Assembly: GCA_965204285.1 (NCBI GenBank)
Contig: OZ241980.1
Span: forward strand, 261,811-325,810
Direction of reading: 5' to 3'
DNA length: 64,000 nt
Origin: Candidatus Poribacteria bacterium
GTDB taxonomy: Bacteria; Poribacteria; WGA-4E; WGA-3G
The position numbers were made by a program, and so were the translations under genes. A model generated the notes under the pieces. The model ran no database searches. It was given only the letters and a program-made list of their open reading frames with translations, and was not told where the DNA came from. Positions 10,497 through 28,835 of this stretch are shown piece after piece. Position 1 is the first letter of the stretch; each line of letters starts with the position of its first letter.

Positions 10497-12658
10497 TCAA
10501 TTAAAACCGAAATAAATAACGTTCAGAGTCGTTCAGTTTAAGGTTTTATCTTTACTTTAGCATGGTCGCGCCCAGGAGTTTCGCTCCTATAGTAAGATAT
10601 CCTTGTAAGAAGGTAGAAACCATTGGAAAATTGAATGGCTCTGAAGCGCGTTTATACAACTTCAATCAGTTCAAATCTGATGAGATTTTCCGTAAATTCA
10701 AAATCATTTTTTAATTGACTTATACTTTTAAATTCTAATTATGTTATACTAATCCTTGTAAAATGTAATACGCTCCAATTTGATTGTGAGATAACCTATG
10801 CAATACAATGATGCTGACCTGATTCAACGCACCTTAGAAGGTGATCAGCAAGCTTTTACGGATCTTGTGGAAAAATACCAAAAACAGATACACGCGTTGG
10901 CGTGGCAGAAGATTGGTGATTTTCACATTGCACAGGAAATTACGCAGGACGCTTTTTTAACTGCGTATCAAAAACTCGCGACGCTCACACATCACAGCCA
11001 GTTTTCAGGATGGATCTATGCTATTACCAGCAATAAGTGCAAAAATTGGCGGCGAAAGAAAAGACTGGCATTTCAATCCTTACAAACAATAGATCCTGTT
11101 GAATTAGAGGAGGTGTATTATTCAGAGTATATGACTAAACAACGCGAAGAAGCAGTAAATCGAAAACGACGCGCTATTGTGCAGAAATTGTTAAGTAAGC
11201 TGCAAGAGAGTGACCGCACCATCGTAAATCTATTTTACATCGCAGAAATGACCTGTGAGGATATTGGAAGGTTTTTAGGTGTATCTCCTAACACCGTCCG
11301 TAGTAGACTCCACCGCGCACGCAACCGATTAAAGAAGGAAGAAGCGATGATTAAAGAAAACTTAAGTAGTTTCCAATTGCCAACACAATTAACTGAAAAC
11401 ATTATGAAAGAGATTTCACACCTTAATCCAGTAGCACCTTCAGGAAACAGACCTCTGGTGCCAATAGTTGTTTCTGCCGCCTCAGCCATTTTAGTACTAT
11501 TGCTGATGGGTGCTGGCACACAATACTTAAATCGTTTTCAGAAACCGTATAGCTTAAACGCACAATCAGAACCGACAATTGAAATAACAGAGACACAACT
11601 TGTCATTGACATGCCAGCAGAACCTGCAGTACGCAACCAGATTGGACGTTCAGATGTCCCAGGCCAAAGTGACGGTGCGGGACAGAAACCAGACACACCA
11701 CTATTCGCTGCAGCACAAGCGGATGATGCCGAAATTTTAAAGGTAAAGCCGCAGTGGGTTAAAACAAAAGGATTTGAAGGCGGTGTAATTAATTCACTTT
11801 TCTCAACAACGCGTAGAGACATTTTTGCAGAGACTACTACAACTCTCTACAAACTCTCAGACAATGGAACGAGATGGAAACCTGTCAAAATATGGTATGC
11901 ACCTTCACTTAGATGGACAGATTGGTCAATAGGTGGCAGACGGATGGTTGAGTCGAACGACACACTCTACATCGTCACAAATGAAGAAATTTGGGCATCC
12001 GTTGATAGAGGAGAGACATGGAATTCACTTGGAACACATCCCGAAGGACCGCCAATAGGTATGGTAAGAACCGATGCAGGGTTTTATCTTGGCCTTGCCG
12101 ATGGGATTTACAGATCTGAAGATGGTATGGCACCGTGGATATCTCTAAAAGATGGAATGGAACCAGGAAAAATTAAGGCGATTGCTGCAGTGGAAAACAC
12201 AGTTTTTGCAGGGACCAATAACGGACTCTATCGTCTCAAAACAGGTGTATGGGAAAAAGTATCAATTAATCAGCCAGATAATACAGAACAAAATCAGGTT
12301 ATCCATGCACTGGCAGTTTCTGAACGCCAACTTTATGCAGCAGTAGGAAAGAAGTTTGAATATAGGTCGGGAAAGCAGCATCAATTAGAACTTACAAATG
12401 ATTCTTGGTGGTCACTCTATCGCTCTAATGATTTTGGTAATTCATGGGATTCCATAGATCCAAGGAAAAGACCATTAAACGAGATAAAATCGAAAAGTGA
12501 AGTGCCAATCAATTTTCCACCCAATGGTGTCAATGTAGCATTAGGTGCAAACCTAAAGATAATAGCGGAAAAAGAAAAAGTTATGGTTGCTGTCCCATCA
12601 GAATTATTCTACTCAATCGATACTGGTGAGACATGGAATTACTTCAGTTTAAATGATA

Positions 12659-13671
12659 ACGTGAGTTTGATAAATAGTATTAGAAATTACATATCATTGG
12701 CAACTGATAGTCATTTTCTTTAAGTTCTTTATGTTTAAGTGAAGGTTTTTTCTGTAGACAGGTATAAGCGATCAAGGCAGCAACTGCATTCACTTGAAAG
12801 TTAACAGGACTTCTATGGCGTGTGTGTTGTATCTCTGTCTGACTTTTAAGTTCTTTATTCACCGACTCAATAAGCATGCGTTTTTTTAGAAGTGCTGCAT
12901 CAGCATCAGACAAAGGTTCAGGTTTCATATTCTTACGCACCTTGTAAATGAGCGTCACACCGTCTTCTTGGAGTCTCTCCCGCAGATTTTTGTTGATATA
13001 CCCTTTATCGGCAAATAGTTTGCCAAAGAGCCCTTGACACAACTGTGGCACGGTTCGCCTGTCATCTACGTTTCCCGCTGTCACCATAGCGGACAAGAGT
13101 TCACCTTGGTCGTTGATGACGAGATGTAGTTTAAACCCATAGAACCATCCCATAGAGGTTTTAGAACGCTCCGCATAATCAATGAAGACGCGATGCGCTG
13201 AAATCCGGCGATTGTGGCAGACCGGCAGCGGTGTTGAGTCTATGAAGGAAATGCCACGACACTTACCGAAACGGGTGTTGAGAAAAATAGACAACAAAAC
13301 CAATACCTCTTGTGAGAGCTGCACAAAACGACTATAGCTGACAAGGTTCGGAAACGCCCAACGCAGATGGAAACAGACATAATCCTGATAATACGCTTTA
13401 AAGTTTTTATACTGCTTCTGATGAAAAAGCACAAGTATCGTCATGACTTCGCTCGGATGAAGGCGCCGGGGTCTGCCCCGTGTGTTGTTTGTTCCGGGTA
13501 TGTCCGGCAACTGGTATTGTGCTTGATATTGTTCATACGTAAGAAAAAAGTCGTCAATTTCACAGAAAAGTGTTATGATATCCATCAGAGAACTCCTTTG
13601 TAAGTATAATGGTATACTTCATCATAACAAAGGGGTTCTCTATTTACCAGTTTTTAATTATCAAACTCACG
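12659..13671 (-). mobile_element. IS982-family insertion sequence (1013 bp)
   Basis: It has perfect 15-bp terminal inverted repeats (acgtgagtttgataa ... ttatcaaactcacgt). A 10-bp direct repeat, ttaaatgata, flanks it on both sides. It encodes one 301-aa transposase. Confidence 0.75.
12680..13585 (-). CDS. IS982-family DDE transposase
   Basis: The 301-aa product begins MDIITLFCEIDDFF and contains a GFKLHLV block and later acidic residues typical of IS982/IS4-like transposases. AAGGAG RBS. Confidence 0.65.
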   Translation of the reverse strand: MDIITLFCEIDDFFLTYEQYQAQYQLPDIPGTNNTRGRPRRLHPSEVMTILVLFHQKQYKNFKAYYQDYVCFHLRWAFPNLVSYSRFVQLSQEVLVLLSIFLNTRFGKCRGISFIDSTPLPVCHNRRISAHRVFIDYAERSKTSMGWFYGFKLHLVINDQGELLSAMVTAGNVDDRRTVPQLCQGLFGKLFADKGYINKNLRERLQEDGVTLIYKVRKNMKPEPLSDADAALLKKRMLIESVNKELKSQTEIQHTRHRSPVNFQVNAVAALIAYTCLQKKPSLKHKELKENDYQLPMICNF

Positions 13672-15296: not shown

Positions 15297-18200
15297 ATGA
15301 AAAACGATGATTCTGAACTAATTCAACGCACATTAGAAGGTGACCAACACGCTTTTGCTCTACTCGTAGAAAAATACCAAGAGCAGGTACACACCCTTGC
15401 GTGGCAAAAAATTGGTGATTTTCACATTGCACAAGAAATCACGCAAGATGTTTTCCTCACTGCATATCAAAAATTCTCGACCTTCACACACTACAGACAA
15501 TTTGCAGGATGGCTCTATGTTGTTACAAACCGAAAGTGCATTGCATGGCACCGGAAGAAAAAAATAAAAACACAATCAATTGATGAGACAAATCCAATTG
15601 AGTTGGAGGAAGCATATTATACAGAATATATGGCGCATCAGCGGGAAGAATCAGCAAAAGAAAAACGCCGCACTATAGTTCATAAACTGCTCAGCAAGCT
15701 AAAGGAAAGTGACCGTACAGTGATGAACCTCTATTACATCGCTGAAATGTCATGTGAAGAAATTGCTGAGTTTTTGGGTGTATCTCCCAATACGGTTCGG
15801 AGTAGACTCCACCGCGCACGCAACCGATTAAAGAAGGAGGAAGCAATGATTAAAGAAAATCTCAGCAGTTTCCAACTGCCAACACAATTAACTGAAAACA
15901 TTATGAAGGAAATTTCACGTCTCAATCCAGCGGCACCTTCTGGAAATAAACCACTTGTGCCGATAGCAGTTTCTGCCGCCGCTGCAGTTTTAGTCTTAAT
16001 GCTGATAGGGACTGGGATGCAATACTTAAATCGTTTTCAGAAACCGTATAGCTTAAACGCACAATCTGAGCCGACGATTGAGATAACAGAGACACAACTT
16101 GTCATTGACACACCAGTAAAACCGTCTGTACGGACTCAGGTTGGGAAATCTGATGTAACAGGTAGAACAGAAGGGGCAGGTCAAAAACCGGACGCGCCAC
16201 TATTGGCTGCAGCACAAGTGGATGAAGATGAAATATCAAAACCGATACGGCAATGGAGAGATGCAAAAGGACCGGAAGGTGGTGCAGTTGGTACTCTCTT
16301 CACAACAAACAGCGGTGACGTGTATGCAACGTCAAAAAACGGTCTCTACAGACTCACAGGTGATGGAAAAGCATGGAAACTCATAAACACTATTAAATAT
16401 TCTTCCGGTGATGCACTAACAGGAAGGAATGTATTTCGACATGTAGCAGAATGGCAGAATACATTCTACCGTGCTATTGATACAAAAATCTTCGCTTCTA
16501 CAGATAGAGGCGCGACATGGAAAGAATTTTGCGAGTGTATAAAAGGTGATCTTGTTGGTATGGTGATAACAGGAAGTAATCCAGAATCTGAAAGCGATAT
16601 GACAATCTACCTTGCTTACAAGAAAGGAGTCTTCCGTTCAGATAATGCTGGCAAATCGTGGACACCACTACCCGAAGGTATCAACGATAGACAAATTGGT
16701 GTAATCACTAATATAGGAAATACTGTTTTTGTCGGTACTGACAAAGGACTTTATCGTCTTAACGCTGATAAATGGGAACAATTGTCCATCGCTCAAGCAG
16801 ATACGAAAGAAAACACGCTACCTATTATTGCGATGGAAGTTGCAGAAAATAGCCTCTATGTTGTTACAAGGAAAAGTATATTTGGAGATCCTGATCCATT
16901 ATACACAAGTTTCGGTTTGTCGCGTGTAAGAATCAATTCTCGGATACCAAGAATTGGATTTAAACCTCGTGAACCATACGTGTGGTCAATCTTTCGTTCA
17001 GATGATATAGGCAATTCATGGAAAACTATTACGCCAGATAGCAACAATATAAAGAAGAAACCAGGGCAAAAGCCAAAAATCTCCAATATATTTCCACCAC
17101 GTAAGAACGAAGGCGATGCTCCCTTTATAACATCTCTGGATACAACCTTCAAAATGTCTGCAGCGGTGGGAAAGGTGGTAGTAATAGATGGTGAGGCATT
17201 CTTTTTTTCTATCAATGCTGGTGAAACTTGGAGAACCGTAGACAAAACGGCTAATATAGGTAAGACTTCTGGTTTGGCATTGTTAAATGAGAATACTATC
17301 TATGTATCTGGAAGATTCGGAATTTATCGCTCGACTGATGGCGGAGAATCATGGCATGAATTTAATACCGGTTTAGTGAACACAGAAGTTCGGGAATTAA
17401 TTGCTGTTAAAGGAACCCTCTACGCAAACACAAGAACTGGACTTTTCAGTTCTGTTGACGGTGGAGAATCGTGGATACCTGTTCCAGGCGATACTGGCTA
17501 TCTCACGCGTTTGGCGAAATTTAACGAGGAGCTCTATGTAAGAGATGATAAAATCGGTGCACCCCGGTTTTTCCGCTTTTCCGCCAAAGACAATAGACTC
17601 ATGGACATCTCAGAAATACCTGCCTTTAAAAAAGTTGATTTTCATAAAGAAGTACGTGAGAAACCAATTCAGGATAGAGGACCTATAACATCGGTACCAC
17701 ACGGAAAGGGAAGTTTTTATACGTTGATGCTTGGTAGCTTTGCTGTCAATGATGGAACGTATTATGTGGAATATATGCAAAAACTCTTCAAATGGAAATC
17801 TGGTATACCTGAATGGTCCAACACTGGATTATTAGATAAAATTGGTATCGAGAAAAATTGGTATTCCAATAACTTATTCGATTCTATTGGCTTTAGGCTT
17901 GCTGCCTCAGAGAATAATGTTTACGTTGGAAAATGGGATGGTCATCTCATGCAATCGTTTGATGAAGGCAACACATGGAATGATGTCACCGCGAATCTTC
18001 CATTTTCTGTCGTCCATTTTAGGGCAATAGTTTTCGCTGGAAACTTTGTTTATGTCGCAACCGACAAGGGCGTCGTGCTGTCAGGCAACGGCAATGACTG
18101 GCACATACTCACTGATGCAGAAGGGGCTGCTCTTGTTATGAATAGATTAGCAGTGGATGACACGACGGTTTACGGGGAATCTAAGCGAATAGTTTACCAA

Positions 18201-18338
18201 CTGAACAGGAATTCTGGCACGTGGCTGCAAGTCACGCCAGAAATTTCATATCCTGTTAACTGTCTTGCTGTTGATGGGGATACGCTTTATGTCGGTACAG
18301 CTGGATCCGGGGCACTCCGCTTTTCGCTTGATAATTAA
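15297..18338 (+). CDS. ECF sigma-70 domain / single TM / BNR-Asp-box beta-propeller fusion protein (intact paralog C, 1013 aa)
   Basis: The N-terminus has sigma-70 region 2 (LVEKYQEQVHTLAWQKIGDFHIAQEITQDVFLTAY) and region 4 (DRTVMNLYYIAEMSCEEIAEFLGVSPNTVRSRLHRARNRL). A hydrophobic helix follows (LVPIAVSAAAAVLVLMLIGTG). The rest is about 750 aa with repeated S-x-D-x-G-x-(S/T)-W motifs. Confidence 0.8.
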   Translation: MKNDDSELIQRTLEGDQHAFALLVEKYQEQVHTLAWQKIGDFHIAQEITQDVFLTAYQKFSTFTHYRQFAGWLYVVTNRKCIAWHRKKKIKTQSIDETNPIELEEAYYTEYMAHQREESAKEKRRTIVHKLLSKLKESDRTVMNLYYIAEMSCEEIAEFLGVSPNTVRSRLHRARNRLKKEEAMIKENLSSFQLPTQLTENIMKEISRLNPAAPSGNKPLVPIAVSAAAAVLVLMLIGTGMQYLNRFQKPYSLNAQSEPTIEITETQLVIDTPVKPSVRTQVGKSDVTGRTEGAGQKPDAPLLAAAQVDEDEISKPIRQWRDAKGPEGGAVGTLFTTNSGDVYATSKNGLYRLTGDGKAWKLINTIKYSSGDALTGRNVFRHVAEWQNTFYRAIDTKIFASTDRGATWKEFCECIKGDLVGMVITGSNPESESDMTIYLAYKKGVFRSDNAGKSWTPLPEGINDRQIGVITNIGNTVFVGTDKGLYRLNADKWEQLSIAQADTKENTLPIIAMEVAENSLYVVTRKSIFGDPDPLYTSFGLSRVRINSRIPRIGFKPREPYVWSIFRSDDIGNSWKTITPDSNNIKKKPGQKPKISNIFPPRKNEGDAPFITSLDTTFKMSAAVGKVVVIDGEAFFFSINAGETWRTVDKTANIGKTSGLALLNENTIYVSGRFGIYRSTDGGESWHEFNTGLVNTEVRELIAVKGTLYANTRTGLFSSVDGGESWIPVPGDTGYLTRLAKFNEELYVRDDKIGAPRFFRFSAKDNRLMDISEIPAFKKVDFHKEVREKPIQDRGPITSVPHGKGSFYTLMLGSFAVNDGTYYVEYMQKLFKWKSGIPEWSNTGLLDKIGIEKNWYSNNLFDSIGFRLAASENNVYVGKWDGHLMQSFDEGNTWNDVTANLPFSVVHFRAIVFAGNFVYVATDKGVVLSGNGNDWHILTDAEGAALVMNRLAVDDTTVYGESKRIVYQLNRNSGTWLQVTPEISYPVNCLAVDGDTLYVGTAGSGALRFSLDN

Positions 18339-22636: not shown

Positions 22637-23458
22637 TTGATGAAAACTGTGTTGATATTGCTACTGTTTATTGCTTCCTGTGTTACAGCAAGTTTGTTGT
22701 CTCAGGTGAATAATGAAACTAAAATTGTGAAAGTCCCTACTGGTATGGTGTTGATTCCCACAGGCGAATTTGAGATGGGAAGCAAAAAAGGTGACCGTGA
22801 CGAGAAACCTATACATACTGTGCATCTTGATGCGTATTACATAGATAAACATGAGGTTACAGTTGGAGAGTACAAAAAGTTCATCAATGCCACTGGACAT
22901 AGCGCACTACCAGATTCTGTTTTTCGATGTTCTCCTACCGACCAGCATCCAGTTGTCGGTGTAAGTTGGCACGATGCTATGGCTTACGCAAAGTGGGCAG
23001 GAAAACGTTTACCGACAGAAGCAGAATGGGAGAAAGCCGCACGAGGCGGTTTAATAGGGCAGAAATATCCGTGGGGAAATGAGATTGATAGCAATAAAGC
23101 GAACTACAACAAGAACACAAAATCTGGCACGCATGATGAGCAGACAACACCTATAAGAAAGTACTCTGCTAATACGTACGGATTATTTGATATGTCTGGT
23201 AATGTAGCGGAATGGTGTCTTGATGCATATCAGAAAAATTATTACGCAAATTCTCCTCAACGCAACCCTATCGCTGGAGCAGAAAACCTAAATCAGATTA
23301 TCAATAATTTCAAAGATGTAAAGACACGTCGTGTTGTCCGGGGCGGTTCGTGGAGTTTCAACGCAAAGAGTGTGCGTGTAGCAAACCGCATGGGTGAGAA
23401 ACCTTCGCTTTTGAGTAGTGATGTTGGATTTAGATGTATCCGAGATGTAAATCCTTAA
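22637..23458 (+). CDS. formylglycine-generating-enzyme (FGE / SUMF1) domain protein, secreted
   Basis: Signal peptide. Blocks PVVGVSWHDAMAYAKWAGKRLPTEAEWEKAARGG ... RVVRGGSWS ... RCIRD are typical of the FGE-sulfatase domain. Confidence 0.7.
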   Translation: MMKTVLILLLFIASCVTASLLSQVNNETKIVKVPTGMVLIPTGEFEMGSKKGDRDEKPIHTVHLDAYYIDKHEVTVGEYKKFINATGHSALPDSVFRCSPTDQHPVVGVSWHDAMAYAKWAGKRLPTEAEWEKAARGGLIGQKYPWGNEIDSNKANYNKNTKSGTHDEQTTPIRKYSANTYGLFDMSGNVAEWCLDAYQKNYYANSPQRNPIAGAENLNQIINNFKDVKTRRVVRGGSWSFNAKSVRVANRMGEKPSLLSSDVGFRCIRDVNP

Positions 23459-23618: not shown

Positions 23619-24725
23619 TTGCTCCAGATTAGAAGGAATAAATCATTGATTAAACTAAAACACTTGGCACTTATCGGATGCTGTTTTCTCATCGTATTGT
23701 CCGCATCTGCAGAAAACTATACTGGTGATTTTTTAACAAATGGTATTGGGGCACGCGCCCTTGGACTTGGGGGGGCGTATGTTGGCATCGCTGACGATGC
23801 CACCGCTACCTATTGGAATCCCGCGGGAATAGCGGGCGTTCCTCAAAAGTATCAAGTCTGTATGATGCATGCCACACGTCGCTCTGGATTAGGAGCATTC
23901 AGTTATGTCAGCGGTATCGGGAAAATCTTACCACAACTGACACTCGGTCTCTCGTGGATTCGCGCTGGCATTGACGACATTCCGATCTATTACGATGTGC
24001 CAGCATTTGATCCGGATATTAGTGCAGATCAACGCAAAAACAATCCAAAATACCGACCACGAGAAGAAGACTTTATCCCTTCAGGTTATCTCAACGATAG
24101 TGAAAATGCTTTTGTGTTATCACTCGCAACGCGTGTTGCTATCAGTCAATCGTGGTGGGATAACTTCGGAAGAGATTCTATTCCGCCCGAATTTCTATTC
24201 GGTATAAATGTGAAAGGGATCTTTCAGAATTTCAACGGAGCAGGTGATCTTGACGAGTTTACTTCTGTGTTTTCGACTTATGGAAGCCGCGGATACGGTT
24301 TTGATGCAGGCATGCTCATTCGTCTCCCGGATATGAATGCACTTTTCGGTTTGGAAAATGCAGGTGGGTTTGCTTTTGGTATGAATCTCCAAGACATATC
24401 ACAAACGACTTTGACATGGAATACCGTGCCTGCTCTCAAAGAATCAATTCCAGCAAATTTCAATATAGGTCTTGCGTATTTCACGAAACTTTTTTTTAAT
24501 CGTGAATTAATTCTCTCCTATCAATGGCAAGAGCGTTACGGTGGACAAATACATCTCGGCGTAGAATATCAACTCAGTCCACCATTGGCACTACGAATTG
24601 GCTACCGTGATACTCGTTTGACAAGTGGTGTCGGTATTCAGCTCAAACAGTTTCGCCTTGACTATGCGCTTCTCATTGGCGATCTGGTTAGTACCCATTT
24701 TTTAAGTGTACTGTGGACTTTTTAA
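23619..24725 (+). CDS. PorV/PorQ-like outer-membrane beta-barrel protein
   Basis: Signal peptide followed by GARALGLGGAYVGIADDATATYWNPAGIA, characteristic of the PorV/PorQ/UPF0164-type family. The C-terminus ends in aromatic residues. Confidence 0.5.
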   Translation: MLQIRRNKSLIKLKHLALIGCCFLIVLSASAENYTGDFLTNGIGARALGLGGAYVGIADDATATYWNPAGIAGVPQKYQVCMMHATRRSGLGAFSYVSGIGKILPQLTLGLSWIRAGIDDIPIYYDVPAFDPDISADQRKNNPKYRPREEDFIPSGYLNDSENAFVLSLATRVAISQSWWDNFGRDSIPPEFLFGINVKGIFQNFNGAGDLDEFTSVFSTYGSRGYGFDAGMLIRLPDMNALFGLENAGGFAFGMNLQDISQTTLTWNTVPALKESIPANFNIGLAYFTKLFFNRELILSYQWQERYGGQIHLGVEYQLSPPLALRIGYRDTRLTSGVGIQLKQFRLDYALLIGDLVSTHFLSVLWTF

Positions 24726-26007: not shown

Positions 26008-27723
26008 TTACGTCTCAAGTTTTTTCAATTTCCTTCTATCACGCCAATACGCAAACTGCCGATAATAATACCTTATATTTTTCGGAATGTTCTTGAACTC
26101 TGGCACGAATTGGCACGTCCCACCGAGAACAACTAACTGCTCCTTTGCACGTGTCATAGCGACATAGAAAACACGCCGTTCTTCTTCAAGGATGGTATCC
26201 TTCCGGGGAAACCTCCGCTCCAACGTATTGTGAACGAGGATGACCTTTTCCCATTCTCGCCCTTTTGCTTTATGTATTGTTGTCACCTCTATTGGAGAAG
26301 ATAAGGATTCACTTGAAAGTATCTCCTCAATTCGGGCAACCTCATAGTTTGTTCTGACAAGGATTGCGGTCTCAACAGATTCAGATAAATTTTCCAATAG
26401 ACGTTTTGTTATCGTCTCAGGTGTCGTTTCTACTATATCCATTTCTTTTTTCATCGGATTATGGGAACGTAGGTTTTTCCGAATTCGAGGTCTGTTCCGT
26501 TCAATTATGGCTCTTGCATGCTCAACTATTGTTGACGTAGAACGATAATTACGTGTAATCTCATATTGAACGACATCTCGTTTGTTGGTGAATTTCTGCA
26601 TAATCTGGGAATCACCGCCGCGAAAGCTATAAATCGCTTGGTCATCGTCTCCTACCGCAAACAGATTTTCGGACAGTTGAGAAATAAGCCGAAAGTCAAT
26701 TGGTGCAATATCTTGGAATTCATCAACAAGCACATAAGGATATTTGTCTCTGTAGATTTGGCGGATATCTGGGTGGGTTTCTAACAGATTTGCTGCGTAA
26801 ATAATCATATCCTCAAAGTCAACAGCATTCGCGGTTGATTTCTGGTCTTCATATTTCTTTGCAAATTCGCGTGCAACAGGATTTTGTAATGTGTTTGGAT
26901 CAAAAAATCCAGTTTCAACCTGCCGTTTTGCACGCATAACTATCTCTTTTACGTCGTAAAAACGATCACGCAGATTTTCAAAATCGGGGTTTCTATCCAG
27001 ATGATCAGTATATTGTATGCTAAAATGTTGACAGAACATCTCAAGCATAACTTGATTGCTAAATTGTTCTCGCATCGGGTCTGCGCGGTTGAACACTTCG
27101 CCACAGTTTCTGTAATGTCTAATCCAGTATGCTTCACGTTGGTTTGCCTCTCTTCCTCCAACCTGTTCCAACACTTTAAAAGTGAACTGCGATTCTCCTT
27201 CAGCGCGAATGGCTTGTCGGAGTCTATCGTTTGAGGAGTGACTGAAGTGTTCACGCCGACGCCGTTCCGGATTTGTTGATTGTCCTATATAACACTTGCC
27301 TGTCAGTGTGTTCTCAATTTTATAGATAGAAACTGTACTTGTTGCGGCTGCCTGATCAATCTGACTCTTTTCTTTAGCAATGATTTTGTCTATCTCACCT
27401 GACCAAATTTCAGGATGGTGCTTGAATCCTGCCTGCTCGTAGTTTGCCGTGACAATATCTTTTCCAAAAGCATGAAGCGTCCGGATGACCGGCAAAGTGC
27501 CCTTTGACTTTAGTCCAAGCACAATCCGATTTTCCATTTCTTCAACCGCTTTTCTGTTGAATGCTATGGCGAGGATTTTAGAGGGAGGAATGTTGTGGCT
27601 TTGAATAAGTTTCAGAATACGTGCTGTTACCACTCTGGTTTTACCACTTCCTGGTCCAGCAATAACGATAGCGGGACCCACAAAGTGGTTAACAGCTTTC
27701 TCTTGGTTTTTGTCAAGATTCAT
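26008..27723 (-). CDS. UvrD/PcrA-type SF1 helicase with an embedded GIY-YIG nuclease domain
   Basis: Walker A (AGPGSGKT), motif Ia (ILAIAFNRKAVEEM), motif II (VLVDEFQD), motif IV (VGDDDQAIYSFRGGD) and motif V/VI (TIHKAKGREWEKVILV) are present. The GIY-YIG insert reads IYKIENTLTGKCYIGQSTNPERRRREH...AYWI, at about aa 131-215 (nt ~27078-27333). Confidence 0.7.
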   Translation of the reverse strand: MNLDKNQEKAVNHFVGPAIVIAGPGSGKTRVVTARILKLIQSHNIPPSKILAIAFNRKAVEEMENRIVLGLKSKGTLPVIRTLHAFGKDIVTANYEQAGFKHHPEIWSGEIDKIIAKEKSQIDQAAATSTVSIYKIENTLTGKCYIGQSTNPERRRREHFSHSSNDRLRQAIRAEGESQFTFKVLEQVGGREANQREAYWIRHYRNCGEVFNRADPMREQFSNQVMLEMFCQHFSIQYTDHLDRNPDFENLRDRFYDVKEIVMRAKRQVETGFFDPNTLQNPVAREFAKKYEDQKSTANAVDFEDMIIYAANLLETHPDIRQIYRDKYPYVLVDEFQDIAPIDFRLISQLSENLFAVGDDDQAIYSFRGGDSQIMQKFTNKRDVVQYEITRNYRSTSTIVEHARAIIERNRPRIRKNLRSHNPMKKEMDIVETTPETITKRLLENLSESVETAILVRTNYEVARIEEILSSESLSSPIEVTTIHKAKGREWEKVILVHNTLERRFPRKDTILEEERRVFYVAMTRAKEQLVVLGGTCQFVPEFKNIPKNIRYYYRQFAYWRDRRKLKKLET

Positions 27724-27905
27724 ATTTGATCGTAGGAAAGAATACTTATGCTTAGTATATCATTAGAGAGATGTGAAGTCAAAACGTTTGTAGCTTGAAT
27801 AAAATGGAAGTTGACTCCAACAAACCTAATATGATATAATATTCACATACAATTTAGGAGCAATCCAGAAACCTCCCGCACCTTGTTGATAGTTAAAAAC
27901 ACTTT

Positions 27906-28835
27906 ATGAATTACGTCTTTATTTATATTTTTATTATAACTTCCATCCTCATTTGTATACCCGTTGCAGCTGATAGTACAGACATCCACGAAAATGCTGG
28001 AACTCGTGCGATGACATTCCTCAAAATAGGTGTCGGTGCAAAGGCAATGGGAATGGGAGAGTCTCAAGTTGCTGCGACAGATGATCTTTACGCATCGTTT
28101 TGGAATCCCGCTGGTCTTGCAAGACTTCAAAAACCGCAACTTGCACTTATGCATAATGAATGGTTCGCTGGAATCAATCACGAGTTTGTGGGGTTTGCCC
28201 TTCCAATTGGAAATAATACTGTCGGTGCGAGTGCTAATTTCTTATCCTTTGGTGAATTACAGGGACGCGATCAGGAAGGAAATGAAACGACCCTTTTCCG
28301 TCCTTACGATTTAGCAGTTGTCCTCTCTTATGCGCGTAGTATCGGAAATACGTTGGCTTTTGGTGCAAATGCAAAATTCTTACGGGAACAGATCGCAGAC
28401 GATAGCGGCAGAGGGATTGCGTTTGATCTTGGTGGATTATATGCTTTTACAGATGTTCCGCTTTCACTTGGTTTTAACGCACAACATATCGGACCGCGAG
28501 TGAAGTACATTGAAGATGCGTTTGAACTTCCCTTCACTTTAAGATTAGGGACAGCATATCGATTTTGGAACGAGGCTGTCATCTTAACAATGGATTTCAT
28601 TCGTCCCACCGACAACGATAATTCCATTGGGATAGGTGGCGCTTACACAATAGGTAACGTATTGCAACTACGGACAGGTTATATATATAAACTCGGTGGA
28701 AACGATTTAGGGGCAATTTCTGGACTTAGAGGCGGTTTTGGACTGACCCTCCGAAAATTCCAAATTGATTATGCACTCGTCCCGTTCGGTGATTTGGGGA
28801 TAACACACCGATTTTCTTTGCTTGCGAATTTTTAG
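27906..28835 (+). CDS. PorV/PorQ-like outer-membrane beta-barrel protein (second copy)
   Basis: Signal peptide plus GTRAMTFLKIGVGAKAMGMGESQVAATDDLYASFWNPAGLA. It ends ...LLANF. Confidence 0.5.
   Translation: MNYVFIYIFIITSILICIPVAADSTDIHENAGTRAMTFLKIGVGAKAMGMGESQVAATDDLYASFWNPAGLARLQKPQLALMHNEWFAGINHEFVGFALPIGNNTVGASANFLSFGELQGRDQEGNETTLFRPYDLAVVLSYARSIGNTLAFGANAKFLREQIADDSGRGIAFDLGGLYAFTDVPLSLGFNAQHIGPRVKYIEDAFELPFTLRLGTAYRFWNEAVILTMDFIRPTDNDNSIGIGGAYTIGNVLQLRTGYIYKLGGNDLGAISGLRGGFGLTLRKFQIDYALVPFGDLGITHRFSLLANF

What the first reader, a model, noticed from the sequence alone, without database searches (positions are those of the whole stretch)
26008..27723. UvrD-type helicase with a GIY-YIG nuclease domain inserted where domain 1B normally lies
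The 571-aa product carries SF1 helicase motifs I, Ia, II, III, IV and V/VI. Between motifs Ib and II, where UvrD/PcrA have the 1B domain, it has an insert of about 85 aa with the GIY-YIG signature (IYKIENTLTGKCYIGQSTNPERRRREH ... E ... YWI). The protein is shorter than UvrD and Rep.

A helicase with an internal, rather than terminal, GIY-YIG module is an unusual nuclease-helicase arrangement. It could act in defence or repair, for example processive unwinding coupled to nicking. The gene stands alone, flanked by an MFS transporter gene and a PorV-like gene.
Basis: partly seen in the sequence, partly recalled or inferred. Interest (0 to 1): 0.6.

Follow-up and report, generated by a model that had tools for sequence, protein, structure and literature searches.

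The report
Helicase with built-in GIY-YIG nuclease
This gene encodes a compact DNA-unwinding motor of the UvrD type with an intact DNA-cutting (GIY-YIG) module wired into one of its DNA-contacting domains. The design is conserved across the sponge-associated phylum Poribacteria, was found nowhere else I looked, and appears to be undescribed.

Summary
ORF 26008..27723 (-) encodes a 571-aa SF1A UvrD/PcrA-type helicase with all motor motifs. Nested at residues 129-216 is a GIY-YIG domain: Pfam E 4e-10 (above gathering cutoff), and the modelled fold matches the I-TevI catalytic domain (TM 0.74-0.79).

- The insert does not replace domain 1B. It sits in a loop between 1B helices that are retained.
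- The protein is short because the regulatory 2B domain and the C-terminal domain are missing.
- The gene stands alone here, but in some Poribacteria a longer paralogue lies directly downstream. That paralogue has a second, degenerate GIY-YIG, a GrpE domain and S1 RNA-binding repeats.

Evidence that the module is functional:
- The catalytic Tyr/Tyr/Arg/His/Glu set is kept in 245-249 of 250 family members.
- dN/dS of the module (about 0.06-0.12) equals that of the motor.
- The gene is syntenic and evolves at the rate of its neighbours.

This argues for a domesticated homing-endonuclease domain, not a selfish passenger.

Most likely it is a helicase-nuclease that couples 3'-5' translocation to strand incision. 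Its biological role (repair or recombination versus defence) is unresolved. I rate it a new variant of a known kind, of moderate to good interest.

The parts
26008..27723 (-). Complete CDS (571 aa plus stop) of the helicase-nuclease
   Evidence: ORF list. Pfam UvrD-helicase, UvrD_C and nested GIY-YIG. An identical protein (P0001) lies on a 5.08-Mb contig, and more than 120 clusters at 70% identity or above share the architecture.
27754..27782 (-). Promoter-like site (TTGACT-17-TATACT with TG) about 30 bp upstream of the ATG
   Evidence: Consensus scan. The number of such sites in the region is not above the shuffle expectation, so this is only a candidate.
27484..27723 (-). Residues 1-80: first half of motor domain 1A (Q motif, motif I GPGSGKT, motif Ia)
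   Evidence: Aligns to PcrA 11-89 and UvrD 13-90. Q7, G25-T29 and R35 are invariant or nearly so in the family.
27340..27483 (-). Residues 81-128: N-terminal part of domain 1B (helices 83-93 and 110-128). The boundary with 1A is approximate.
   Evidence: Query 81-104 aligns to PcrA 90-113. GIY-less relatives have the equivalent helix.
27076..27339 (-). Residues 129-216: GIY-YIG nuclease domain of the I-TevI (homing endonuclease) type. Catalytic candidates are Y134, Y145, R155, H159, E197 and N212.
   Evidence: Pfam PF01541 E 4.4e-10. TIGR01453 53.4 bits. PHROG homing-endonuclease families. I-TevI by sequence and by fold. Catalytic residues are invariant. dN/dS is 0.06-0.12. Coordinates verified.
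26974..27075 (-). Residues 217-250: conserved helix (224-233, SNQ..E.FC.HF) and a flexible loop that came in with the insert
   Evidence: Absent from GIY-less relatives. P216, E228 and F234 are invariant. Residues 240-247 have low pLDDT.
26737..26973 (-). Residues 251-329: C-terminal part of domain 1B (helices 251-267, 282-297, 303-316, 318-327)
   Evidence: Query 279-329 aligns to PcrA 168-218 and UvrD 162-212. Shared with GIY-less relatives. Model.
26089..26736 (-). Residues 330-545: second half of 1A and domain 2A, with motifs II (DEFQD), III, IV (NYRS), V and VI
   Evidence: Alignment to PcrA, UvrD and Rep. Foldseek top hits are UvrD, PcrA and Rep. Invariant columns listed.
26293..26316 (-). 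Residues 470-477 (SSESLSSP): short junction where canonical UvrD/PcrA/Rep carry the roughly 170-aa 2B domain
   Evidence: Query 469 aligns to EcUvrD 367, and query 477 to DrUvrD 564. Canonical relatives have about 170 extra residues here. Coordinates verified.
26011..26088 (-). Residues 546-571: basic/aromatic C-terminal tail (IPKNIRYYYRQFAYWRDRRKLKKLET), predicted helix, function unknown
   Evidence: The motif is shared with the extreme C-termini of long paralogues (KKNLGYYLRQ.GRF..K.K). Helix 550-569 has modest pLDDT. Coordinates verified.

Best explanation
The gene encodes a compact SF1A (UvrD/PcrA/Rep-type) ATP-driven DNA translocase-helicase that carries its own endonuclease.

Architecture (shown):
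- A complete I-TevI-type GIY-YIG domain is nested in a loop of the 1B domain. 1B lies over the DNA channel next to the single-strand/duplex junction.
- The regulatory 2B domain is absent.
- The module most probably began as a phage-type homing-endonuclease domain that was captured in frame and domesticated.
- It is now a vertically inherited core gene of Candidatus Poribacteria under strong purifying selection.

Proposed working (inferred):
- The motor binds and moves 3'-to-5' on single-stranded DNA, as its relatives do.
[quoted passage not shown] This could create the enzyme's own entry nick (nick-and-unwind), or cut a strand at the fork during unwinding, as helicase-nuclease resection machines do.
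- In some Poribacteria it probably works together with a longer paralogue encoded immediately downstream. In this window it acts alone, or with a partner encoded elsewhere.

Status of each step:
- Shown: the architecture, the intact motor and nuclease motifs, the conservation, and the lineage restriction within the data searched.
- Inferred: catalytic activity, polarity, which strand is cut, and the biological role. I favour DNA repair, recombination or processing over dedicated anti-phage defence.
For: - Motor: all SF1 motifs align with PcrA, UvrD and Rep. PF00580 E 3e-61. The AF2 model (pLDDT 80) matches UvrD, PcrA and Rep best (TM 0.52-0.60).
- Nuclease: PF01541 above cutoff. I-TevI match by sequence and by fold. 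Homing-endonuclease PHROGs.
- Active site: Y134, Y145, G147, R155, H159 and E197 are kept in 245-249 of 250 family members, including paralogues at only 46-50% identity.
- Selection: dN/dS of the GIY module is 0.06-0.12, against 0.06-0.15 for the motor. Identity across 120 homologues is 76% for the module and 78-82% for the core.
- Position: nested between retained 1B helices, with 2B absent.
- Core-gene behaviour: same architecture in all 120 best hits, many from 4-6.7-Mb chromosomes. Synteny is conserved, and divergence is similar to the neighbours (88% against 87-95% in L001; 78% against 78-87% in L002).
- Family: tandem short-then-long paralogue pairs.
- Literature context: 2B is regulatory/autoinhibitory and forms the dimer interface (PMC11912403). 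The Gabija nuclease GajA docks on the 1B domain of its UvrD-like partner GajB (PMC10781630), so 1B is a precedented nuclease-coupling surface.
Against: - No biochemical or expression data exist. The tools did not give model coordinates, so the distance and orientation of the GIY-YIG active site relative to the DNA path could not be measured.
- The long paralogues carry S1 RNA-binding and GrpE domains, which hints that the family may act on RNA or RNA-DNA hybrids and not on plain DNA.
- Toxin-antitoxin, HNH and restriction genes recur within a few kb of the gene in relatives. This is compatible with a defence role.
- Whether Poribacteria also have canonical UvrD/PcrA, RecBCD/AddAB and UvrC could not be checked, so 'repair' is not anchored by a missing-function argument.
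- The homing-type GIY-YIG domain is inherently non-specific, and what restrains it from damaging the host chromosome is unexplained.
Confidence: 0.6

Rival explanations
1. Dedicated anti-phage or anti-plasmid defence effector: a single-protein nuclease-helicase that recognises and shreds foreign DNA. It would be functionally comparable to Gabija (GajA nuclease plus GajB UvrD-like helicase) or to single-chain nuclease-helicase immunity proteins.
For: - The best PADLOC matches are GajB models (up to 226 bits).
- The family shows lineage-specific paralogue expansion and domain accretion.
- Relatives' loci often have PemK/MazF toxins, small HNH genes, restriction-modification genes, Mrr, Uma2 or an integrase within a few kb.
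- The nearest GIY-less helicase relatives sit in giant phage-like proteins.
Against: - The GajB matches are generic UvrD similarity, and no GajA/OLD-type partner is adjacent.
- The short gene is present in essentially every Poribacteria hit, at a conserved chromosomal position (purL-purQ ... HEL-MFS-OMP-PhyH). It diverges no faster than its metabolic neighbours and has dN/dS of about 0.1. This is atypical for defence genes, which are patchy and fast-evolving.
- The window itself has no defence genes within about 8 kb.
- Sponge-symbiont genomes are known (my own background knowledge) to be rich in such genes, so nearby TA and R-M genes are weak evidence.
Confidence: 0.2
2. The enzyme acts on RNA or RNA-DNA hybrids (R-loops, transcription-replication conflicts, RNA turnover). 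The helicase strips or unwinds RNA-containing structures and the nuclease cuts them.
For: - Long paralogues fuse the same helicase-nuclease core to up to four ribosomal-protein-S1-like S1 domains and a GrpE domain.
- The short form shares their C-terminal tail motif and is sister to GrpE-bearing forms in a rough tree.
- UvrD/PcrA-family enzymes are known to act on RNA-DNA hybrids and to bind RNA polymerase (my own background knowledge).
- Pfam also reports Viral_helicase1 (SF1 RNA helicase) similarity at 54 bits.
Against: - The window protein itself has no S1, GrpE or other RNA-binding domain.
- All characterised GIY-YIG nucleases I know of cut DNA.
- The motor is closest to DNA helicases in both sequence and fold.
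- The Viral_helicase1 match is generic SF1 similarity.
Confidence: 0.12
3. The GIY-YIG module is a selfish or neutral passenger: a homing-endonuclease domain that landed in frame in a helicase gene and is tolerated without contributing to the host protein's function. This was proposed for the one-off GIY-YIG insertion in an HsdR subunit (PMC1564403).
For: - The module is of the homing-endonuclease type.
- Free-standing GIY-YIG endonuclease genes resembling it lie near helicase genes in phage contigs.
- The literature documents the mobility of this domain.
Against: - No empty-site close homologues were found. All 250 family members keep the module at the same position.
- Catalytic residues are near-invariant across paralogues at about 46% identity.
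- dN/dS equals that of the motor.
- There is no intron (no Rfam hit) and no intein domain.
- There are no NUMOD or other DNA-binding modules that a homing enzyme needs.
- A degenerate second copy is retained in paralogues, which indicates structural integration.
Confidence: 0.05
4. The GIY-YIG domain is retained but catalytically silent. It would serve only as a DNA-binding or structural substitute for the missing 2B domain.
For: - 2B, the usual duplex-contacting regulatory domain, is missing.
- In paralogues, a second GIY-YIG copy that has lost the catalytic Arg in 93 of 93 cases is nevertheless conserved, so a non-catalytic role for this fold exists in the family.
Against: Module 1 keeps every catalytic residue in about 98-99% of sequences. 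This would not be expected if chemistry were irrelevant, and the contrast with the decayed module 2 makes the point.
Confidence: 0.05

Closest known systems
UvrD / PcrA / Rep (SF1A DNA helicases)
   Same: All motor motifs and the 1A-1B-2A fold are shared. These are the best sequence and structure matches. 3'-5' ssDNA translocation is expected.
   Different: - There is no 2B domain and no C-terminal (Tudor-like) domain.
- 1B carries a nested nuclease.
- Scores are far below NCBIfam equivalog cutoffs (222 against 911 for PcrA).
- It is not an orthologue of any of the three.
I-TevI-type GIY-YIG homing endonucleases
   Same: The catalytic domain matches in sequence, fold and residues (Y, Y, R, H, E, N). 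It also matches phage homing-endonuclease PHROGs.
   Different: - There is no linker, zinc finger, NUMOD or HTH DNA-binding region.
- It is not free-standing or intron-encoded.
- It is fixed, syntenic and under host-level purifying selection, so it is a domesticated domain and not a mobile element.
AdnAB / AddAB / RecBCD helicase-nuclease machines
   Same: A UvrD-like motor is covalently joined to a nuclease. In some Poribacteria two paralogous motor-nuclease subunits are encoded in tandem, as for AdnA/AdnB (PMC5314763).
   Different: - The nuclease is GIY-YIG, not RecB-type PD-(D/E)XK.
- It is nested in 1B and not appended at the C-terminus.
- The window has only one subunit.
- No evidence for double-strand-break end processing was obtained.
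Gabija (GajA nuclease plus GajB UvrD-like helicase)
   Same: A UvrD-like helicase is coupled to an endonuclease through the helicase 1B domain (PMC10781630). GajB models are the best PADLOC hits.
   Different: - There is no GajA/OLD-Toprim partner.
- The nuclease is a different fold and is in the same chain.
- GajB retains 2B.
- The gene behaves like a core gene.
Tlr8p-type SF1 helicase with a C-terminal GIY-YIG domain; GIY-YIG inserted in HsdR MCA0838 (Dunin-Horkawicz et al. 2006, PMC1564403)
   Same: These are precedents for I-TevI-like or Slx1-like GIY-YIG domains joined to helicase or translocase proteins, including one internal insertion.
   Different: - Tlr8p is eukaryotic and element-encoded, and its nuclease is terminal.
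- The HsdR insertion is a singleton with a close empty-site homologue and was judged possibly non-functional.
- Here the insertion is ancient, phylum-wide and selected.

Membership tests
SF1A UvrD/PcrA/Rep-like helicases (superfamily level) | Conserved motifs Q, I, Ia, II, III, IV, V and VI of the RecA-like 1A/2A motor | tested here: met
   Residue-level alignments to PcrA, UvrD and Rep. PF00580, PF13361 and PF13538 are all above cutoff. These motifs are invariant across the family.
SF1A UvrD/PcrA/Rep-like helicases (superfamily level) | Fold of the motor core | tested here: met
   AF2 model (pLDDT 80.4). The top 24 Foldseek PDB hits are UvrD, PcrA, Rep and UvrD1, with E down to 7e-23.
Canonical UvrD, PcrA or Rep (orthologue level) | Four-subdomain architecture including the rotating 2B domain (GIG motif) (PMC11912403, PMC5973834) | tested here: not met
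   Only 8 residues (470-477) lie where UvrD has residues of about 368-554.
Canonical UvrD, PcrA or Rep (orthologue level) | Score above the NCBIfam equivalog cutoff | tested here: not met
   PcrA 221.9 against 911; Rep 192.8 against 951; UvrD 187.7 against 1144.
GIY-YIG nuclease superfamily | Profile match above the curated threshold | tested here: met
   PF01541, 40.1 bits against 22.6, E 4.4e-10.
GIY-YIG nuclease superfamily | Catalytic residues (two Tyr, Arg, His/Tyr, Glu, Asn of I-TevI: Y6, Y17, R27, H31, E75, N90) | tested here: met
   Y134, Y145, R155, H159, E197 and N212 align to them. They are kept in 245-249 of 250 sequences.
GIY-YIG nuclease superfamily | Three-stranded sheet with flanking helices (the GIY-YIG fold) | tested here: met
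   Segment model (pLDDT 86.9). The best PDB matches are I-TevI 1mk0/1ln0 (TMt 0.74-0.79, rmsd 2.3-2.6 A), then UvrC 1yd2 and Slx1.
GIY-YIG nuclease superfamily | Mg2+-dependent strand cleavage | not testable with these tools
   Needs biochemistry.
Homing endonuclease (mobile I-TevI-like element) | Free-standing, intron-encoded or intein-associated gene with C-terminal DNA-binding modules, and a patchy presence/absence distribution | tested here: not met
   - No Rfam intron across 24-30 kb.
- No intein or NUMOD domains.
- TIGR01453 is just under its cutoff (53.4 against 56.05).
- The module is present in all family members at one site and under purifying selection.
Gabija GajB | UvrD-like helicase encoded next to GajA (OLD-family ATPase-Toprim nuclease) | tested here: not met
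   GajB HMMs hit, but the neighbours are MFS and PorV-like genes. No GajA appears in any of 13 related loci.
AddAB / AdnAB / RecBCD | RecB-type PD-(D/E)XK nuclease domain C-terminal to the motor | tested here: not met
   No such Pfam domain was found. AddA and RecB models match only over the motor, far below cutoffs.
AddAB / AdnAB / RecBCD | Two-subunit machine encoded by adjacent genes | tested here: inconclusive
   - Not in this window.
- A paralogue is directly downstream in L002, L081, L082 and L083, but in only 1 of 10 loci sampled through the short form.
- Physical interaction was not tested.
UvrC / Cho (nucleotide excision repair incision) | UvrC-type GIY-YIG with UvrB-binding region, Endo V-like domain and HhH | tested here: not met
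   No UvrC or Cho NCBIfam or Pfam hits at E <= 1. The structure is closer to I-TevI than to UvrC.

The most novel reading that the evidence does not exclude
Poribacteria have evolved their own class of helicase-nuclease machine. It is built from 2B-less UvrD-like motors with a GIY-YIG nickase wired into domain 1B. It exists as a universal short subunit (this gene) and as optional long partner subunits that add a dead GIY-YIG copy, a GrpE domain and ribosomal-S1-like RNA-binding repeats. The system would do a job that other bacteria give to AddAB/AdnAB/RecBCD or to transcription-coupled UvrD, for example DNA end or R-loop processing linked to RNA and the DnaK chaperone. It would be a mechanistically new way of coupling unwinding to incision.
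Probability: 0.3. Interest if true: 0.75.

Novelty: new variant of a known kind. Interest (0 to 1): 0.58.

Why it matters
Helicase-nuclease fusions are central to DNA repair, recombination and immunity, but the known ones append a PD-(D/E)XK, HD or Toprim nuclease to an end of the motor or supply it in trans.

Here a homing-endonuclease-type GIY-YIG domain has been domesticated inside the 1B domain of a UvrD-like motor that has also lost its regulatory 2B domain. The result has been kept under strong selection across a whole phylum. If the activities are coupled as proposed, it offers three things:
- a natural example of a self-loading 'nick-and-unwind' enzyme;
- a test case for how 1B and 2B govern SF1A helicase activity;
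- a clear example of a selfish nuclease domain turned to host use.

The long paralogues (helicase, nuclease, GrpE and S1 in one chain) point to an unexplored link between DNA or RNA processing and the DnaK chaperone system in uncultivated sponge symbionts. A compact motor-nickase could also interest enzyme engineers.

Tried and rejected
- **Group I intron or intein carrying the endonuclease.** Rejected. There is no Rfam match in 24-30 kb at E <= 1 and no Hint/intein domain. The reading frame is continuous and conserved.
- **Gabija membership.** Rejected. The GajB hits are generic and no GajA is present.
- **Functional operon with the MFS transporter or the PorV-like gene.** Rejected as a functional link. 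The synteny holds only among closer relatives (L001-L003, L164, L165, L167), while other loci have DUF6785/GFO instead. There is no terminator before the MFS gene, so co-transcription is possible.
- **Viral origin or relatives.** IMG/VR holds no close relatives (<= 39% identity). BFVD structures match only the motor.
- **Nested architecture elsewhere.**
  - None of about 155 non-Poribacteria helicase loci has a GIY-YIG inside the helicase gene.
  - None of the 120 GIY-less top representatives carries the module.
  - An InterPro-style architecture query could not be run.
- **Cluster look-up for taxonomy of divergent members.** It returned no names.
- **Unavailable or limited tools.**
  - Lee & Yang 2006 could not be read, so the exact UvrD domain boundaries rest on my own knowledge plus PMC5973834 and PMC11912403.
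  - Model coordinates are not exposed, so I could not measure active-site geometry.
- **Long paralogue elsewhere in this genome.** I could not determine this from a 64-kb window. There is no long-form C-terminal homology in the window.
Full report
**1.

The minus-strand ORF 26008..27723 starts with ATG and encodes 571 aa.
- Pfam reports UvrD-helicase (PF00580, E 3e-61, residues 3-381) and the C-terminal UvrD domains. Inside the PF00580 match it reports a GIY-YIG domain (PF01541, residues 133-206, E 4.4e-10, 40.1 bits against a gathering cutoff of 22.6).
- NCBIfam places the motor nearest PcrA, Rep and UvrD but far below their equivalog cutoffs. It matches the insert to TIGR01453 'group I intron endonuclease' at 53.4 bits, just under the cutoff of 56.05.
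- Residue-level alignments to solved PcrA, UvrD and Rep chains show motifs I, Ia, II, III, IV, V and VI.
- The insert aligns to the I-TevI catalytic domain, with Y134, Y145, R155, H159, E197 and N212 on the I-TevI catalytic positions.
- The neighbours are an MFS transporter gene downstream on the same strand and a divergent PorV-like gene.
- No RNA family, and in particular no intron, is detected across 24-30 kb.

**2. Where the insert sits, and why the protein is short.**

The query aligns to PcrA 11-113 with residues 2-104 and to PcrA 168-372 with residues 279-470. Residues 477-535 align to the motif V/VI region (about PcrA 560-620).
- The UvrD-family plan is two RecA-like motor subdomains (1A, 2A), each interrupted by a large insertion (1B, 2B) (PMC11912403). 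From my own knowledge of Lee & Yang 2006, 1B is about residues 90-214 and 2B about 378-550 in E. coli UvrD. The 2B GIG motif at 414-422 is cited in PMC5973834.
- So both ends of 1B are present. About 174 residues stand where PcrA has about 54.
- Only eight residues (470-477) stand where 2B should be.
- A full-length AF2 model built on 56 family sequences (mean pLDDT 80.4, pTM 0.69) has helices 83-93 and 110-128. These are followed by a beta-beta-alpha-alpha-beta-alpha unit (130-207, pLDDT above 90) and an extra helix at 224-233. Helices 251-267, 282-297, 303-316 and 318-327 then precede motif II.
- MAFFT against GIY-less relatives shows they have about 40 residues between the equivalents of helix 110-128 and helix 251-267. 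The nearest of these relatives also lack 2B.
- Foldseek places the whole model with UvrD, PcrA and Rep (TM 0.52-0.60, E down to 7e-23).
- A separate model of residues 105-300 (pLDDT 86.9) has the I-TevI catalytic domain as its best PDB match (1mk0, 1ln0; TM normalised to target 0.74-0.79; rmsd 2.3-2.6 A). UvrC's GIY-YIG domain and Slx1 follow.
- Conclusion: the GIY-YIG domain plus one helix is nested in a loop of a retained 1B domain. It does not replace 1B. The small size of the protein comes from the loss of 2B and of any C-terminal domain.

**3. Who has it.**

- All 120 best database hits (70-100% identity, 564-603 aa) have the same Pfam architecture. Every hit that carries a source name is 'Candidatus Poribacteria', apart from one labelled with the sponge Geodia barretti. 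Many come from 4-6.7-Mb chromosomes.
The rest were ordinary UvrD/PcrA-like genes at 23-41% identity.
- IMG/VR has nothing closer than 39%.
- A family-specific GIY-YIG profile run over six-frame translations of all 163 fetched loci finds the nested module only in Poribacteria. Phage contigs show only free-standing GIY-YIG genes near helicase genes.
- The literature library holds a C-terminal GIY-YIG on the Tlr8p SF1 helicase and a singleton GIY-YIG insertion in an HsdR subunit (PMC1564403, PMC5499653). It holds nothing on a GIY-YIG nested in UvrD, and nothing linking Poribacteria with this domain.

**4. It is part of a larger paralogous family.**

The exhaustive search of 50%-identity representatives revealed proteins of 750-1640 aa at 45-57% identity over the same core.
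- These proteins have the helicase with the nested GIY-YIG. Many add a second GIY-YIG-like module, an extra insertion in 2A, a coiled coil and a genuine GrpE domain (up to 88 bits).
- Further C-terminal parts are a conserved unknown domain (motif CTD..FR.FW..MW), up to four ribosomal-protein-S1-like S1 domains, a low-complexity region and a basic tail.
- They too are Poribacteria. NCBI names some of them 'nucleotide exchange factor GrpE'.
- Of 250 family members in hand, 157 have one module and 93 have two.
- Module 1 keeps Y/Y/G/R/H/E in 245-249 of 250 sequences. Module 2 has lost the catalytic Arg in 93 of 93.
- The C-terminal tail of the window protein (NIRYYYRQFAYWRDRRKLKK) recurs at the extreme C-terminus of many long forms (KKNLGYYLRQ.GRF..K.K). 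A profile of the short-form tail hits only that region, with eight real hits and none in shuffled controls.
- A rough neighbour-joining tree without support values makes the short forms one clade, sister to single-module forms that carry GrpE. This suggests the short form is a trimmed derivative.

**5. Genomic context.**

- In L002, L081, L082 and L083 a short form lies immediately upstream, on the same strand, of a medium or long paralogue. This occurs in two different synteny backgrounds.
- Sampling through the short form (window, L001-L005, L164-L167) finds the paralogue adjacent in only 1 of 10 loci.
- The window has no homology to the long-form C-terminal modules.
- The usual setting is purL-purQ, small variable genes (PemK toxin, HNH), the helicase, then MFS, an outer-membrane protein, PhyH and an enolase-family gene. 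A variant has DUF6785 and a GFO oxidoreductase.
- No partner other than the paralogue recurs.
- The helicase diverges at about the rate of its neighbours: 88% against 87-95% in L001, 78% against 78-87% in L002, and 72% against 70-81% in L003.

**6. Selection.**

- Across 120 homologues, identity to the query is 76% in the GIY-YIG module and 78-82% in the motor.
- Nei-Gojobori dN/dS on 13 short-form genes gives 0.06-0.12 for the module in unsaturated pairs and 0.06-0.15 for the motor.
- With the near-invariant catalytic set, this argues that the nuclease chemistry matters to the host.

**7. How it most likely works.**

Shown:
- an intact SF1A motor;
- an intact, well-folded GIY-YIG domain anchored on 1B;
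- no 2B;
- long-term purifying selection.

From established knowledge:
- UvrD-family motors track 3'-5' on ssDNA, with the 5' side on 2A and the 3' side on 1A (PMC11912403).
- 2B is regulatory and autoinhibitory and forms the activating dimer interface (PMC11912403).
- 1B lines the DNA-binding site (PMC5973834).
- In Gabija, the nuclease docks on the helicase 1B domain (PMC10781630).
- GIY-YIG domains have a single active site and cut one strand.

Inferred:
- The enzyme is a helicase-nuclease in which the motor supplies DNA binding and positioning, replacing the DNA-binding modules of a homing enzyme. The 1B-borne nuclease incises a strand at or near the junction.
- The incision could make the enzyme's own loading nick, or it could cut during unwinding.
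- Where a long paralogue is present, a two-subunit machine analogous to AdnAB (PMC5314763) is plausible.
- I could not measure the geometry because model coordinates are not exposed.

**8. Role.**

- Core-gene behaviour favours a housekeeping DNA-processing role over dedicated defence.
- However, nearby toxin-antitoxin, HNH and restriction genes in relatives, the paralogue expansion, and the fact that the nearest GIY-less helicases sit in giant phage-like proteins all keep defence alive as a rival.
- The S1 and GrpE fusions keep an RNA or R-loop-linked role alive.
- The selfish-passenger and catalytically-dead readings are poorly supported.

**9. Verdict.**

This is a real feature with a correctly read architecture. 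The corrections are that 1B is retained, 2B is missing, and the gene belongs to a paralogous family.
- It is not a member of canonical UvrD/PcrA/Rep, of Gabija, of AddAB/AdnAB/RecBCD or of mobile homing endonucleases, because defining features were tested and not met.
- It combines a motor like the first with a nuclease like the last.
- I rate it a new variant of a known kind (helicase-nuclease fusion) with interest of about 0.58.

Noticed in passing
L002:9812-13903 (+); also L082:8001-12158, L081:8001-10427, L083:8001-10337: Long and medium paralogues fuse several parts in one chain:
- the helicase-GIY-YIG core and a second, degenerate GIY-YIG module;
- a GrpE domain;
- an unknown conserved domain (motif CTD..FR.FW..MW);
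- up to four ribosomal-S1-like S1 domains.
NCBI annotates some of them simply as 'nucleotide exchange factor GrpE'. This is a very unusual domain combination of unknown function.
   Followed up: partly
Proteins P0149, P0151, P0153, P0154 (2273-6513 aa; contigs of 42-261 kb): The closest helicases without the GIY-YIG insert lie inside giant proteins. These proteins contain protease-like regions and a repeated 'LLSGQR' motif (8 copies in P0153), and look like phage or mobile-element polyproteins. Their origin and function are unknown.
   Followed up: partly
window 26011-26088 (-); C-termini of long forms such as P0129, P0298, P0132: A basic/aromatic C-terminal tail motif (K-N-[LI]-G-Y-Y-[YL]-R-Q-F...RKLK) is shared by short forms and many long forms despite completely different preceding domains. 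It may be a partner- or membrane-binding peptide.
   Followed up: partly
window 10798-12723 (+) and 15297-18338 (+): Two paralogous ECF-type sigma-70 factors (regions 2 and 4 in the first ~180 aa) are fused to long C-terminal extensions. The 1013-aa protein's extension shows BNR/Sortilin-Vps10/DUF6242-like repeats, while the 641-aa protein's extension has no Pfam match. This is an unusual sigma-factor architecture.
   Followed up: no
L164:6538-6888, L167:6572-6904, L005:6887-7237 (PemK); L166:6598-7014, L081:5212-5619 (HNH): The short stretch between purQ and the helicase gene in relatives is a variable slot. It holds PemK/MazF toxins or small HNH endonuclease genes, and in L166 the HNH gene overlaps the helicase start.
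   Followed up: no
L159:3127-4158, L131:8135-8668, L151:3467-4066, L160:11159-11785, L134:9736-10416: Phage contigs fetched through their UvrD-like helicase genes carry free-standing GIY-YIG endonuclease ORFs a few kb from the helicase gene. These match the Poribacteria module (up to 63 bits). This is consistent with a homing-endonuclease origin for the insert.
   Followed up: no
window 23619-24725 (+) and 27906-28835 (+): The 368-aa ORF with no Pfam hit shares an N-terminal motif (G.GA.A.G.GG...ADD....YWNPAG) with the PorV-like protein. It is therefore probably a second PorV/FadL-like outer-membrane protein, and the two bracket the helicase-MFS pair.
   Followed up: no
L002:16301-16716 (-): The FGE-sulfatase gene that is intact in the window (22637-23458) survives in L002 only as two short fragments. 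It is probably a pseudogene there.
   Followed up: no
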